Origin: Abditibacterium sp.
Lineage (GTDB): Bacteria; Armatimonadota; Abditibacteriia; Abditibacteriales; Abditibacteriaceae
Direction: 5' to 3'
Assembly: GCA_965246885.1 (NCBI GenBank)
Contig: OZ251992.1
Coordinates: 1,184,001-1,248,000 of the forward strand
Length of the DNA stretch: 64,000 bases
A program made the position numbers. Shown in pieces: positions 15,001 through 18,000 of this stretch (positions are counted from its first letter, which is position 1; each line of letters begins with the position of its first letter).

Positions 15001-18000
15001 CGACCGCATCAAGGCAGTTTCGGAGAATTAGATGCTCCTTTCCCGACTGGATAAAACCGCGCGTTGGATGAAACGCGGCGGGCGCGAAGAGGATGTCGTG
15101 CTTTCCTCGCGCGTTCGGCTGGCGCGCAACTTCGCGCGCTTCTCCTTTCCGCACCGCGCCGGAGAGGACGAACTGCTGCGCGTGCGCGCCGGCGTGTTAG
15201 AAGCGCTGGGTGCCGTCGCCGATGCCGCGCCCGATTCTTTGCTCGTCCTGCCTTTCGAGGAGTTCTCGCCAACCGAGCGCCGCTCGCTGGTTGACCGTCA
15301 CCTTTCCTCGCGCGAACACGTGCGCGCCGAAGTGGGACGAGCGCTTGTCACCACCGCCGACGGCGCTTTCTCGGTGCAAGTCAACGAAGAAGACCACTTG
15401 CGCTTGAGCGCCGTGTTGCCCGGACTGCAACTCGACGCGGCGCTACGCCTATGCGACGCCGTAGACGACGCTCTCGAAGCGCACTTCGACGGCGGCAACG
15501 ACTACGCCTTCGACCCCGAATTTGGCTTCTTGACCGCGTGCCCGACCAACGCCGGAACGGGCCTTCGCGCGTCGGCCATGCTCCACCTGCCCGCGCTTTG
15601 TTTGTTGGGCGAACTGCATGAGGCCCGCGCGTGGGCGCTGGAGCGCGGCTTTATCTTGCGCGGCACAAGCGGCGAAGGCTCCGATGTCGCGGGGCACTTG
15701 GAACAATTGTCCAATCAGTCCACCCTCGGCCAAGACGAAGCCGACATCGCCATCGAGATCGAGTTCGCCGCCCGCGAGTTGGCGACCCGCGAACGCGACG
15801 CGCGCGCGCGCCTCATCCAAGAGCAGCCAGTCCACACCCGCGACTTGGTGGGTCGCGCGTATGGCATCGCCCGCTTCGCGCGCCGCATCGGAAGTGTTGA
15901 AGCCACGCACGCCCTCTCGTTGCTGCGTTTGGGGCACGAATTGGGTTGGATGAAGGGCTTGCCGCGCCAGCGTTTCAACGAACTGAGCGTGTGGATGCGC
16001 CCCGATTACCTCAGCGTCTTGCACTCGCGCCCGCTCAACCGCTCCGAGCGCGCCGAACTGCGCGCCGACTTGCTCCATGTTCACGTCGGGAAGGTCAAAC
16101 TGGAAGCCGCTTTCGAGCAATAAACCATGTCTGAACTCAATCCAAACACCGAACCCAAGCTCAAACTCACCGTTGCGCGCAATGGCCCGCTCCGCATCCA
16201 AGGCGCAGGCGAACTGCTCGCGTCGGGCGAACTTCAAATCGCGTGGAACGACGGCGAAGCCGTCACCCCCGCCAACCCCAACGCTTTCACCATCTGCCGG
16301 TGCGGTGCCAGCGCGAGCAAGCCGTTCTGCGACGGCTCGCATTCCAAAATGGGCTTCGACATCGCTGCCCAAGCCGTGCCCGAATCGAAGGAGTGAGCGC
16401 CGCGCCCCTTGCCCGCCATGCTCCTTACCCTCGACATCGGCAACACCAACCTGTCCGCCGGGTTGTTCGACGGCGCCCATTTAGTCCAAACATGGCGCTT
16501 TGCCACGCGGCGCGACGCGACGGGTGATGAACTGGGCGCGCTTTTCTACGCGGCCATGCGCGCGCGGGGCGTGCTGTTTGATGCCGTCCAAGGGCTGTGC
16601 TTGTGCTGCGTCGTGCCGTCGCTGTCCTCGCCCGCGCGCTTTTTCGGGCGCGAATACCTCCATGTGGCGCCGCTCGAAATCGGGCGCGGCTTCGACTGCG
16701 GGTTGGGCAACGCTTACGAAGACCCGCACGCCGTTGGCGCTGACCGCTTGGTCAACGGCGTGGCGGCGCGCGCCATCGCCGGAGGTCGCGCGGTCGTCGT
16801 CGCGGACTTCGGTACCGCCACAACGGTGGATGCGGTTTCTGCCGATGGCACCTACTTGGGCGGCGCCATTGCGCCGGGGGTTGGCATTTCGTCTGACGCC
16901 CTGTTTTCTGCCGCCGCGAAGTTGCCGCGCGTCGAACTGCTTGCGCCGCCGCGCGCCCTCGCCACCAACACGACGCACTCGGTTCAGGCCGGTCTCGCTT
17001 TCGGCTACGCGGGGTTAACTAAGGAACTCGTCGCGCGCATCGCGGCGGAAGTCATAGAGCGCGAGGGAAACGCGCCGCTCGTGTTGGCAACGGGCGGTTT
17101 GGCAGAGCTAATCGCCCCGCTTGTCCCCCAAATCGAGCGCGTCGAGCCGGACTTAACCTTGCAGGGCTTGCGTTTGCTGTGGGAGCGCACAAGAAACGGC
17201 GGCGGTTGAACGAGGGACGTCCGCCATCGGACGAGGGACGTCCGCCATCGGACGAGGGACGTCCGCCATCGGACGAGGGACGTCCGCCATCGGACGAGGG
17301 ACGTCCGCCATCGGACGAGGGACGTCCGCCATCGGACGAGGGACGTCCGCCATCGGACGAGGGACGTCCGCCATCGGACGAGGGACGTCCGCCATCGGAC
17401 GAGGGACGTCCGCCATCGGACGAGGGACGTCCGCCATCGGACGAGGGACGTCCGCCATCGGACGAGGGACGTCCGCCGCGCGAGGAATTTCCCTCGCTGA
17501 GCGGCGAGAAACCGCGCTCGCGGGAAGAAAGAGGTCACTGCTGATGTCATCGTTGCTACTCCCGCCGCCGCTCGCGCCTTGGGCGCCGATGCTCGAACTG
17601 TTCCCGACCGAGTCGGCGCTCGCGCTCGGCCCACTTTTGCGGCGCTTAGAAGGGTTTATCGGCCCCCTGCGCGCCCATCCGCAAAGCGGGAGCATGGAGC
17701 CGGACGGCTTCGACGGCCTCGCGCGGCGCGGCAGTTTGGAGCGATTGCTCCTGTCCGAATGGCTGTTGCTCGAAGAGGCGCCCTTGGAGTTTTTGCGGCG
17801 CTTCTCGCAGGGGGAAAGCGGGTATTTGCAACTGGCGCGGCGCGATCCGACGGCGGCGCGCGCATCATTAGTGCTTCTCGATTGTGGGCCGGACGCGCTC
17901 GGCGGGCCGCGCTTGGTGCAATTGGCGGCGCTACTGGTGCTATCGCGGCGCGCGCAAAACGCGGGCGCAAGTTTTCGTTGGGGCGCGTGGCAAAAGCCGG

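What a model noticed while it worked through the whole genome (the two positions that open the first line are those of the whole stretch)
17210..17477. Genome-wide 21-bp-phased tandem repeat arrays
About 300 loci of this 3.56-Mb genome carry tandem arrays whose unit is exactly 21 bp (or 42/63/84), most of them in the 8% of the genome that is non-coding; about half share a core around the palindrome CAGACGTCTG while the rest of the unit differs from locus to locus. I read them as phased binding-site arrays (two helical turns per unit, all sites on one DNA face) for a lineage-specific dimeric DNA-binding protein, kept expanding by slippage, i.e. a bacterial 'satellite' that organises or insulates intergenic DNA. 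New would be a genome-wide, helically phased satellite family in a bacterium that its congeners lack.
Evidence so far: TRF: 342 arrays of period 21, 84 of 42, 37 of 63 of 1124 arrays; merged to 301 loci, 27.6 kb; 174 loci <20% coding although 91.6% of the genome is coding; up to 13 perfect copies (C1 1201210-1201477, 1323115-1323388, 1408246-1408513, 3287208-3287436; C2 33305-33501). 154 of 272 21-bp units fall in one similarity cluster, consensus GACAGACGTC[CT]G; GACGTC-to-GACGTC distances peak at 21/42/63/84 (85/75/46/39 pairs, call 30). Pattern GACGTC-N15-GACGTC-N15-GACGTC: 45 hits here, 0 in 12 congeneric and 14 further same-family genomes, 7 in one distant Armatimonadota genome (G230), of 401 genomes. 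TRF on 200 kb each of two near-complete congeners: 1 and 3 period-21 arrays vs 9.6 per 100 kb here. Arr [...]
(Added by a program. Inside this text positions count along the whole contig: contig position 1,184,001 is position 1 of the stretch shown here. "Call 12" and the like, gene names such as g00115 and contig names such as C1 are that model's own, and its searches are not shown. The text may have been shortened before it was handed on; [...] marks where a part breaks off. The agent that wrote the report below was given it as the finding of a first reader that could run no searches.)

Follow-up and report, generated by a model that had tools for sequence, protein, structure and literature searches.

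The report
Genome-wide 21-base satellite repeat family

Summary
Window 17210-17477 is 12.8 perfect copies of a 21-bp unit between coaX and an unknown gene. The genome carries about 304 loci of period 21/42/63 (29 kb). Perfect runs of two or more copies number 75 at lag 21 against 0-3 at lags 18-24. Sampled parts of four congeners show only a few short, unrelated period-21 arrays.

The class is not new. Subirana & Messeguer (PMC8161180) described species-specific, non-coding bacterial tandem repeats of constant size 20-21 nt, with a short conserved signal, and proposed a protein polymerising on the DNA. This scan met the same class on other DNA (e1-3321628, e1-3253314).

New here:
- High density: 105 period-21 arrays with four or more copies.
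- 216 of 272 units fall in one similarity network.
- The core is dyad-symmetric only at consensus level (C-R-S-R-C|G-Y-S-Y-G). Its two half-sites have the same base frequencies, and the outer pairs do not covary. This fits a dimeric double-strand DNA site better than a hairpin.

No coding signal was found, and no orientation bias. I found no link to RAYT-like genes or to the four-helix-bundle cassette. No binder was identified.

Best reading: slippage-driven satellites constrained as helically phased protein sites (about 0.4). The main rival is a neutral or selfish minisatellite (about 0.33).

The parts
17210..17477 (.). The flagged array: 12.8 perfect copies of the 21-bp unit ACGAGGGACGTCCGCCATCGG. 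In family phase it reads GAGGGAC|GTCCGCC + ATCGGAC.
   Evidence: perfect lag-21 run of 268 bp
16409..17209 (+). Upstream gene coaX (type III pantothenate kinase). Its stop codon abuts the array.
   Evidence: ORF; Pfam Pan_kinase, E 2.6e-62
17480..17497 (+). Small hairpin-capable imperfect palindrome (GCGAGGAATTTCCCTCGC) directly after the array. It may be a diverged last unit.
   Evidence: sequence; folds as a separate 6-bp stem
17544..19334 (+). Downstream ORF of 596 aa with no Pfam family. It was not found next to coaX in 11 relatives' loci.
3022..3173 (.). Array upstream of the RNase E/G gene. Two unit types (TGACAG... and AGAATTAAGCGCGCC) alternate as a 42-bp higher-order repeat, and phased diverged units begin at 3022.
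26022..26071 (.). Short array, 2.4 copies (CTAATTCTTCGACTGGCGCGA), upstream of a phosphoribosyltransferase gene.
32530..32718 (.). Array of 8-9 units (TCGCGGAACTCTTCCGCGAAC) with a 63-bp higher-order form, between a glutamate-synthase-like gene and a MOSC gene.
49982..50038 (.). Array of 2.7 copies (CGCCAGAGGTGCGCCAAGCGC) between an ABC-transporter gene and an RF-1-domain gene.
63828..63940 (.). Array of about 5.4 units (TCTGTCATCGAGCGGCGCATG) beside a radical-SAM gene.

Best explanation
Shown: this is a genome-wide, lineage-specific family of non-coding minisatellites with a fixed 21-bp unit. It is a very dense member of the published class of bacterial 'constant-length 20-21 nt' tandem repeats.

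Inferred: arrays grow, shrink and homogenise by replication slippage or unequal exchange. The signs are up to 13 identical copies, 42/63/84-bp higher-order units, and diverged in-phase units at array edges.

Hypothesis (my best reading): each unit is a dyad-symmetric 10-bp site, C-R-S-R-C|G-Y-S-Y-G with near-invariant C3 and G12 nine bp apart, followed by an 11-bp spacer. Successive sites therefore lie exactly two helical turns apart, on one face of the DNA. A dimeric double-strand DNA-binding protein, still unidentified, would coat the arrays cooperatively. Selection or drive for that binding would keep the period at 21 while the rest of the unit drifts.
For: Period:
- 342 of 740 TRF rows have period 21.
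- 75 perfect runs of two or more copies at lag 21, against 0-3 at lags 18-24.
- Consecutive same-strand profile hits are spaced 21, 42, 63 or 84 in nearly all cases, e.g. 276, 57, 15 and 11 on the + strand.

One family:
- Unit pairs with >=15/21 identity number 1516, against 54 among random non-coding 21-mers.
- 216 of 272 units fall in one cluster.

Constraint:
- Within 58 arrays (265 copies), positions 12, 3 and 1 differ from the array consensus in 1%, 3% and 6% of copies. The other positions range from 6% to 15%.

Dyad symmetry without stem covariation:
- Left half and reverse-complemented right half have near-identical frequencies. Position 3: C 98% vs 95%. Position 6: A 66/G 30 vs A 63/G 35. 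Position 7: C 61 vs 64.
- Pairs 1-14, 2-13 and 4-11 are no more complementary than independent columns.
- 0 of 136 units are perfect 14-bp palindromes.
- Units are no more palindromic than shuffles.

Other support:
- The dyad is enriched only inside arrays: 262 hits against 21 for a control of the same composition.
- Not coding: mean codon log-odds is negative in all six frames (best -0.25, against +0.49 for real genes).
- Both contigs carry arrays: 8.6 and 6.9 loci per 100 kb.
- The published class and its protein-polymerisation hypothesis: PMC8161180.
Against: - No candidate protein was found. There is one HU gene, as in the relatives, and no histone fold.
- Nothing shows function. Arrays occupy the three gap types in the same proportions as all gaps: 118/37/21 against 1148/344/238. 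There is no orientation bias to flanking genes (46 against 36). Copy number decays steadily: 62, 26, 25, 15, 10, 3, 7....
- Single dyad sites outside arrays are not enriched: 175 against 151 for the control in non-coding DNA.
- The 10.5-bp harmonic of A/T content is not raised (z 1.5).
- About half of the period-21 loci (129 of 272) do not fit the main profile. One sequence-specific binder therefore cannot explain them all.
- The profile alignment started from a palindromic seed, which could favour a symmetric optimum.
- Family units also occur in frame inside a few real genes. A mutational process explains that as well.
Confidence: 0.4

Rival explanations
1. Neutral or selfish minisatellite family. 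One ancestral 21-bp unit spread to many gaps by ectopic recombination or templated repair. It keeps expanding by slippage. The period is simply inherited, because substitutions outnumber indels and homogenisation copies whole units. No protein partner, no function.
For: - Most units (216 of 272) connect in one similarity network.
- Copy numbers decay steadily with no preferred size.
- Distribution over gap types equals that of gaps in general. No orientation bias.
- Arrays are spread evenly along the chromosome (inter-locus gap CV 0.76).
- Units also sit in frame in linkers of real genes.
- Arrays flank ordinary housekeeping genes.
Against: - It does not explain why C3/G12 are protected within diverged arrays.
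- It does not explain why the two half-sites keep the same frequencies.
- It does not explain why 129 loci that do not fit the main profile still have period 21, while periods 20 and 22 have 7 and 6 loci.
- It does not explain why unrelated bacteria converge on 20-21 nt (PMC8161180).
- No dispersal machinery was found.
Confidence: 0.33
2. Structural DNA without a dedicated binder. Any unit with one-sided bendability, repeated every two helical turns, adds its bends in one plane. The arrays would then be curved or supercoil-pinning segments, selected or tolerated for their shape.
For: - Only 21, 42, 63 and 84 occur, all whole numbers of turns.
- Units have one A/T-richer side per 21 bp (first harmonic z 6.1).
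- Alternating purine-pyrimidine tracts are mildly enriched (mean 5.8 against 4.9-5.0).
- The other published size, 52 nt, is close to five turns (my inference from PMC8161180).
Against: - No 10.5-bp A/T periodicity (z 1.5).
- The genome is G+C-rich, with few A-tracts.
- Conservation is of specific bases (C3, G12), not only of composition.
- Curvature was not computed or measured.
Confidence: 0.12
3. The arrays are transcribed and act as RNA: small RNAs or protein sponges, as Subirana & Messeguer also suggest for Bacillus repeats.
For: The 52-nt repeats of B. coagulans are reported as transcribed (PMC8161180 discussion; PMC8625621 abstract). Many arrays here lie between co-directional genes and are probably co-transcribed.
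Against: - No orientation bias relative to flanking genes (46 opposite, 36 same).
- The window array does not fold significantly better than shuffles (z -1.81, 6 of 100 shuffles as good).
- No stem covariation.
- No Rfam family in the window.
Confidence: 0.07
4. REP/BIME-like hairpin elements mobilised by a RAYT (Y1 transposase), or ends of small four-helix-bundle (PF05635) cassettes.
For: The genome has 4-5 diverged Y1_Tnp genes and one PF05635 gene flanked by a 17-nt inverted repeat. A minority of units contain the palindrome CAGACGTCTG.
Against: - No array lies within 4 kb of 3 of the 5 Y1 matches. The Y1 genes have 0, 0, 0, 1 and 0 profile hits within 2.5 kb.
- No tandem array of period 21 beside the PF05635 gene.
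- Units are no more palindromic than shuffles, and the stem positions do not covary.
- Units are head-to-tail, not alternating.
Confidence: 0.03
5. Unannotated coding sequence: seven-residue peptide repeats, or MIRU-like small ORFs coupling neighbouring genes.
For: - 21 = 7 codons.
- In the window, an ORF (17179-17544) runs through the array from inside coaX to the start of the next gene.
- Conservation shows a weak period-3 pattern.
- Some family arrays are read in frame inside real genes.
Against: - Codon log-odds is negative in all six frames.
- Open frames are equally common on the gene strand and the opposite strand.
- The GAATTA sub-type carries stops in the frames that are best for the main type (sequence).
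- All six frames of the window unit are open simply because it is G+C-rich.
Confidence: 0.03

Closest known systems
Constant-length (20-21 nt, also 52 nt) non-coding tandem repeats of bacteria (Subirana & Messeguer: IJMS 2021, PMC8161180, sections read; J Bacteriol 2020, PMC7549362, not held, known only through the 2021 paper's account)
   Same: - Repeat size 20-21 nt dominates the genome's tandem-repeat spectrum.
- Arrays are non-coding and species-specific.
- 40-42-nt forms are related to the 21-nt ones.
- A short characteristic signal is conserved in the repeats.
- No known function. The same two hypotheses apply: a protein polymerising on the DNA, or small RNA.
   Different: - Higher density. 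Here 105 period-21 arrays have four or more copies in 3.56 Mb. The '21-nt-rich' Bacillus of their Table 4 have 22-29 arrays of 20-21 nt in 4.4-5.5 Mb; the detection programs differ.
- Most units here belong to one similarity network rather than to unrelated families.
- The conserved signal resolves into a dyad-symmetric 10-bp consensus.
Plasmid centromere and iteron arrays (F sopC 43-bp repeats, pSK41/R1 parC, Rep iterons of about 22-bp spacing). Recalled from memory, not from a call.
   Same: Head-to-tail direct repeats. Each carries a site for a dimeric DNA-binding protein, spaced by whole helical turns so that the proteins line up on one face and bind cooperatively.
   Different: Those are one or two arrays per replicon, next to the gene of their binder, with one conserved sequence. 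Here there are about 300 loci, no adjacent cognate gene found, and diverse unit sequences.
REP/BIME elements with RAYT transposases (recalled)
   Same: Short, G+C-rich, intergenic and genome-wide. Partly palindromic. Proposed nucleoid roles (gyrase, IHF binding).
   Different: REPs are hairpins of 20-40 nt in alternating orientation, and they flank their RAYT gene. Here the units are direct repeats of fixed 21 bp with no stem covariation and no association with the Y1 genes.
MIRU / bacterial VNTR minisatellites and cyanobacterial STRR heptamers (recalled)
   Same: Intergenic tandem repeats that vary by slippage. MIRUs lie within operons.
   Different: - MIRU units are 40-100 bp and carry coupled small ORFs. 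There is no coding signal here.
- STRR units are 7 bp. Lags 7 and 14 are not raised in the autocorrelation, and TRF lists no period with 3 or more rows below 9.
21-bp arrays of Pirellulaceae found here (Stieleria and relatives)
   Same: Many loci per genome. 21-bp unit made of a conserved core (GGGGACAGACCCC) plus 8 variable bases. Up to 23 copies. Confined to a narrow clade: only G026 itself among the 301 Planctomycetota genomes searched had a match.
   Different: - The shared GACAGAC was imposed by my search pattern, so homology is not shown.
- The core there is not the same dyad.
- The TGTCCCC core also forms 14-16-bp arrays there.

Membership tests
Constant-length 20-21 nt bacterial satellites (Subirana & Messeguer) | One repeat size (20-21 nt) dominates the tandem repeats of the genome | tested here: met
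   342 of 740 TRF rows have period 21. 105 of 135 loci with four or more copies have period 21.
Constant-length 20-21 nt bacterial satellites (Subirana & Messeguer) | [quoted passage not shown] | tested here: met
   165 of 304 loci are <20% coding by my rough caller. Codon log-odds is negative in all six frames. A minority are true protein repeats or in-frame linkers.
Constant-length 20-21 nt bacterial satellites (Subirana & Messeguer) | Sequence varies between loci or families while size stays constant | tested here: met
   There are several sub-types (GACAGACGTCTGGGAAT..., GAATTAGGCGCGCC..., GGGGAGGAA...), and 129 of 272 units lie outside the main profile. However, 216 of 272 are linked at >=15/21, so the sequences are less diverse than 'no sequence conservation'.
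Constant-length 20-21 nt bacterial satellites (Subirana & Messeguer) | Species-specific families | tested here: met
   Sampled parts of four congeners have 2-4 short period-21 rows each, none fitting the family profile. No array lies after coaX in 11 relatives' loci.
Constant-length 20-21 nt bacterial satellites (Subirana & Messeguer) | A short characteristic sequence conserved in the repeats | tested here: met
   G1, C3 and G12 occur in 84-79% of 216 units. The dyad is C-R-S-R-C|G-Y-S-Y-G.
REP/BIME with RAYT | Unit is an imperfect-palindrome hairpin, with complementarity kept by covariation | tested here: not met
   The arm-length distribution equals that of shuffles. Pairs 1-14, 2-13 and 4-11 show no excess complementarity.
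REP/BIME with RAYT | Repeats flank the RAYT (Y1 transposase) gene | tested here: not met
   Five Y1_Tnp matches. Profile hits within 2.5 kb number 0, 0, 0, 1 and 0.
MIRU-type intergenic repeats | Units of 40-100 bp holding small ORFs that overlap the neighbouring genes | tested here: not met
   The unit is 21 bp. There is no strand preference of open frames and no coding signal. The single bridging ORF in the window is expected by chance in G+C-rich repeats.
Centromere/iteron-type protein-binding arrays | Direct repeats with a dimer site, spaced by whole helical turns | tested here: met
   A dyad-symmetric consensus every 21 bp. This concerns architecture only.
Centromere/iteron-type protein-binding arrays | A cognate binding protein, usually encoded beside the array | tested here: inconclusive
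   The genes beside the six arrays of the window are housekeeping or unknown. No genome-wide screen for a binder was possible.
CRISPR array | Constant repeats separated by unique spacers | tested here: not met
   Whole units are repeated head to tail, with no unique spacers.
Four-helix-bundle (PF05635) cassette end arrays | Arrays form the ends of a cassette carrying the PF05635 gene | tested here: not met
   There is one PF05635 gene in the genome. It is flanked by a 17-nt inverted repeat, and the only tandem repeat in the 2.3-kb stretch is a 12-bp one of 1.9 copies, not a 21-bp array.

The most novel reading that the evidence does not exclude
The arrays are loading platforms of a still unknown, lineage-specific dimeric DNA-binding protein that polymerises with a two-turn register. 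This would give the bacterium a satellite-based layer of nucleoid organisation: sopC-like centromere arrays multiplied to about 300 intergenic loci. The same protein-plus-21-bp-register principle would then underlie the constant-length satellites seen sporadically in Bacillus, Pirellulaceae, Bacteroidota and others.
Probability: 0.2. Interest if true: 0.8.

Novelty: new member of a known kind. Interest (0 to 1): 0.45.

Why it matters
Bacterial genomes are thought to purge tandem repeats. Yet a scattered set of species fills its intergenic DNA with arrays of one fixed length, two helical turns, and nobody knows why.

This genome is a good test case:
- It has about 300 loci in 3.6 Mb.
- Its congeners lack the family.
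- Its unit has a dyad-symmetric core that points to a dimeric double-strand DNA binder rather than a hairpin or an RNA.

That turns a vague idea into a concrete experiment: pull down what binds a defined 21-bp array. Finding such a protein would reveal a new kind of nucleoid organiser. Finding none would establish a true bacterial selfish satellite with an unexplained length rule.

Tried and rejected
- **Hairpin/REP reading.** Palindrome arm lengths equal shuffles. There is no covariation at stem positions. RNA fold z is -1.81.
- **RAYT link.** 4-5 Y1_Tnp genes, none embedded in family units.
- **PF05635 cassette link** (a lead from earlier notes). None.
- **Coding/MIRU reading.** Rejected.
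- **Heptamer (STRR-like) origin.** No lag-7 or lag-14 signal.
- **10.5-bp A/T phasing.** Not enriched.
- **Z-DNA-like alternating tracts.** Only mildly enriched.
- **tRNA-derived origin.** One tRNA-Leu D-arm scores 17.6 bits on the profile. I took it as chance and did not pursue it.
- **Array boundaries.** No common remainder modulo 21 and no target duplication.
- **Repair-gene loss.** MutS and MutS2 are present as in the relatives. Ku was not found in any of the 15 genomes searched.
- **Nucleoid proteins.** No histone fold in the 15 genomes. One HU gene, as in several relatives.
- **Conserved regulator motif in relatives.** The dyad is no commoner than a control there.
- **Rfam on the window.** 0 matches.
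- **Sequencing runs.** Two runs of one study hold the stretch, and no RNA holder is listed. Their contigs stop at the array edges (17239/17448 and 32527/32745), so copy-number variation could not be read.
- **Metagenome scans.** The coaX-array junction gave 0 hits. Of the 160 loci I scored (80 from this scan, 80 from the genome scan), the only one with 3 or more family-profile hits was a Stieleria array from the genome scan.
- **Synteny.** The gene after coaX is not conserved in the relatives, so the gap could not be compared.
- **Literature.** No paper holds the string GGGGACAGACCCC. None holds '21-bp tandem repeat' + intergenic + bacterial. Seven papers mention Abditibacteriota with repeats, none relevant by title or abstract.
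- **J Bacteriol 2020 paper.** Not held.
- **Supplementary tables of PMC8161180.** Not opened.
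Full report
**The thing itself.** Window 17210-17477 is 12.8 head-to-tail copies of ACGAGGGACGTCCGCCATCGG with no mismatch.
- It begins one base after the stop codon of coaX (16409-17209, Pfam Pan_kinase).
- It ends 66 bases before an unknown 596-aa ORF (17544-19334, no Pfam family).
- A small imperfect palindrome (17480-17497) follows. It may be a diverged last unit.
- All six frames of the unit are open, which is expected for G+C-rich repeats. An ORF bridging coaX and the next gene (17179-17544) is therefore not evidence of coding.
- The 64-kb window holds five further period-21 loci. They lie beside RNase E/G, a phosphoribosyltransferase, a glutamate-synthase-like gene and a MOSC gene, an ABC transporter and an RF-1-domain gene, and a radical-SAM gene. 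These are ordinary housekeeping surroundings.

**Genome-wide check.** I laid the whole assembly (3.555 Mb, 2 contigs, GC 62.5%).
- TRF (score >=50) gives 740 rows: 342 of period 21, 84 of period 42, 37 of period 63. The next commonest periods are 18 (47 rows) and 15 (43 rows).
- Merged, that is 304 loci and 29 kb.
- Perfect runs of two or more copies number 75 at lag 21 and 3, 0, 0, 0, 2, 3 at lags 18, 19, 20, 22, 23, 24.
- GACGTC pairs stand 21/42/63/84/105 apart 89/78/49/40/27 times, and never 20, 22, 41 or 43 apart.
- By my own rough gene caller (86% coding), 165 loci are <20% coding and 124 are >80%. Many of the latter lie at the extreme ends of over-long ORFs. A few are real protein repeats (147-bp FG-GAP/Kelch-like, PT linkers). 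Some family arrays are truly in frame inside long genes.
Only 'about half share CAGACGTCTG' is too generous: 58 of 272 units lie within two mismatches.

**Lineage specificity.**
I did not test that.
- The closest genomes held share about 82% CoaX identity, are 7-8 Mb, and have about 55% GC in the sampled parts of G012 and G010.
- None of 11 relatives' loci has a 21-bp array after coaX. The downstream gene is not conserved there, so the gap itself cannot be compared.
- TRF rows of period 21: 4 in 400 kb of G012, 3 in 200 kb of G009, 2 in 120 kb of G010 and 2 in 80 kb of G004, against 42 in 400 kb of this genome. Those arrays have about two copies and score like random DNA on the family profile.

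**Anatomy of the unit.**
- Units from different loci are far more alike than random non-coding 21-mers: 1516 against 54 pairs at >=15/21. 216 of 272 units form one cluster.
- Aligned, the skeleton is R-R-Y-R-n-R-n-n-Y-n-Y-R-n-n-R-n-Y-Y-R-n-Y, with G1, C3 and G12 most conserved.
- In 58 diverged arrays (265 copies), positions 12, 3 and 1 change least: 1%, 3% and 6% of copies, against 6-15% at the other positions.
- Positions 3-12 form a dyad-symmetric consensus, C-R-S-R-C|G-Y-S-Y-G. The left half and the reverse complement of the right half have almost the same base frequencies.
- The outer symmetric pairs (1-14, 2-13, 4-11) are no more complementary within a unit than independent columns. Only the central pairs (6-9, 7-8) are, which reflects ACGT-type and GCGC-type sub-families. 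No unit of 136 is a perfect 14-bp palindrome.
- Units as a whole are no more palindromic than shuffles. The window array as RNA does not fold significantly better than shuffles (z -1.81).
- Symmetry of the consensus without stem covariation is the signature of a site read by a symmetric protein dimer on double-stranded DNA. It is not the signature of a hairpin.
- One caveat: the alignment started from a palindromic seed.

**Phasing and spread.**
- Profile hits on one strand follow each other at 21, 42, 63 or 84 bp almost without exception. Diverged units flanking the TRF arrays stay in phase.
- At 14 bits there are 577 hits against 27 in the reversed genome: 362 in arrays, 149 in other non-coding DNA and 66 in ORFs.
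- The degenerate dyad is enriched only in arrays: 262 against 21 for a control.
- About half of the period-21 loci (129 of 272) do not fit the main profile. That is still many times the number of loci of period 20 (7) or 22 (6). The length rule therefore reaches beyond one sequence type, as in the published class.
- A lag-21 excess in base autocorrelation persists after masking arrays, even in ORFs. I cannot explain this.

**What the arrays are not.**
- Not coding: codon log-odds is negative in all six frames, and there is no strand preference of open frames.
- Not oriented with genes (46 against 36).
- Not tied to one kind of gap: 118 co-directional, 37 divergent and 21 convergent, against 1148/344/238 for all gaps.
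- Not next to the 4-5 RAYT-like Y1 genes or the one PF05635 cassette.
- Not in Rfam.
- Not heptamer-based.
- Copy numbers fall steadily, with no preferred size.
- MutS/MutS2 are present, Ku was not found in any of the 15 genomes searched, no histone fold was found, and there is one HU gene as in several relatives. No obvious gene gain or loss explains the expansion.

**What is known.** Two earlier notes of this scan, on other genomes (e1-3253314, e1-3321628), pointed me to Subirana & Messeguer.
- I read the introduction, section 3.3, the discussion and the tables of their IJMS 2021 paper (PMC8161180).
- They describe an 'enigmatic group' of bacterial tandem repeats with constant size (20-21 or 52 nt) and variable sequence. 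The repeats are non-coding and species-specific, with a short characteristic signal (for example TCGCGG in B. weihaiensis).
- They note that 21 nt is two helical turns. They propose either a protein that needs a constant repeat size to polymerise on the DNA (a nucleoid role) or small RNAs.
- Their J Bacteriol 2020 survey is not held.
- The finding is thus a new member of a known, unexplained kind.
- It is a dense one. It has 105 period-21 arrays with four or more copies in 3.56 Mb. Their 21-nt-rich Bacillus have 22-29 arrays of 20-21 nt in 4.4-5.5 Mb; the detection methods differ.
- My own inference: 52 nt is close to five helical turns, so both published sizes are whole numbers of turns.

**A parallel found in passing.** A scan of one genome per species for GACAGAC at 21-bp spacing gave more than 118 loci in many phyla.
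- Most are single arrays.
- Stieleria and its relatives among the Pirellulaceae have ten or more loci per genome. The unit there is GGGGACAGACCCC plus 8 variable bases, with up to 23 copies. In a draw of 301 Planctomycetota genomes, only G026 itself had a match.
- The shared heptamer was imposed by my pattern, so homology with this genome's family is not shown.

The dyad-without-covariation result and the protected C3/G12 favour helically phased sites of a dimeric DNA-binding protein (about 0.4).
- A neutral or selfish minisatellite with an inherited unit length remains nearly as likely (about 0.33). A protein-free structural role (0.12), RNA (0.07), REP-like elements (0.03) and cryptic coding (0.03) trail.
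- The class is already published, so novelty is 'new member of a known kind'. The interest lies in this genome being a sharp test case for an open question.

Noticed in passing
whole genome (not in the window); seen as over-represented 8-mers: The words GTTTCAAT, TCAATCCC, TGAGGGAT, TTTGAGGG, TGCTTTGA, ATCGTGCT, TTAATCGT and CCTTTAAT are each 250-400 times over both strands and far above expectation. They look like pieces of one CRISPR-type repeat, so the genome probably holds a large CRISPR array.
   Followed up: no
L006:1035-1153 and 1404-1501; L009:1035-1140 and 1392-1500 (congeners G005, G006, between the guanido-phosphotransferase gene and coaX): The congeners carry pairs of 7- and 8-bp tandem arrays that are reverse complements of each other (AGGCAAT x4.3 with CTATTGC x6.4; AGCGGAGG x4.2 with CTCCTCCG x4.2). 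These are hairpin-forming short-period arrays of a different kind from the 21-bp family.
   Followed up: no
L175-L184 (G026, G027; Pirellulaceae): Ten or more loci per genome carry 21-bp arrays with the core GGGGACAGACCCC plus 8 variable bases, up to 23 copies. Next to them lie 7-bp (GCTAACC) and 15-bp (CTGTCCCCTGCTGCC) arrays. One array has 9.0 copies in both L180 (G026) and L184 (G027), with the same neighbouring 120-bp repeat.
   Followed up: partly
G000:C1:10567-10905, 567387-567722, 1335203-1335535, 1930539-1930880, 1381523-1381828: There are four clear matches and one weak match to the Y1 transposase family. The three genes compared are only 36-38% identical to each other, which is RAYT-like rather than a multi-copy IS200. 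Their own flanking repeats were not examined.
   Followed up: partly
G000:C1:472414-472704 (L304:943-1360): A single PF05635 (23S rRNA intervening-sequence protein, four-helix bundle) gene is bracketed by a 17-nt inverted repeat, i.e. a small palindromic cassette.
   Followed up: partly
whole genome versus G002, G010, G012: This genome is about half the size of its closest relatives held (3.56 against 7.2-8.0 Mb). It is also about 7 points richer in G+C than the sampled parts of G012 and G010 (62.5% against about 55%). The satellite expansion therefore goes with a marked shift in genome size and composition.
   Followed up: no
whole chromosome, ORF-covered DNA with arrays masked: Base autocorrelation at lags 21, 42, 63 and 84 (0.3039, 0.3026, 0.3014, 0.3015) exceeds that at other multiples of three (about 0.296-0.300), even in coding DNA. 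Either many undetected degenerate arrays or heptad-like protein repeats could cause this.
   Followed up: no
G000:C1:3123718-3123802 (tRNA-Leu CAA) and other tRNA-Leu genes: The D-arm and anticodon-stem region (ATTGGCAGACGCGCTGGACTC) scores 17.6 bits on the family profile, as high as good family units. This is probably chance, but a tRNA-derived origin of the unit was not excluded.
   Followed up: no
G000:C1:668029-668123 and 672915-673009: Two arrays 5 kb apart have the identical 42-bp unit (GAATTCACGGCGCGCGGGGAG GTAATAATCCCACGCGGGGAG) and the same copy number. This suggests a recent local duplication that carried an array along.
   Followed up: no
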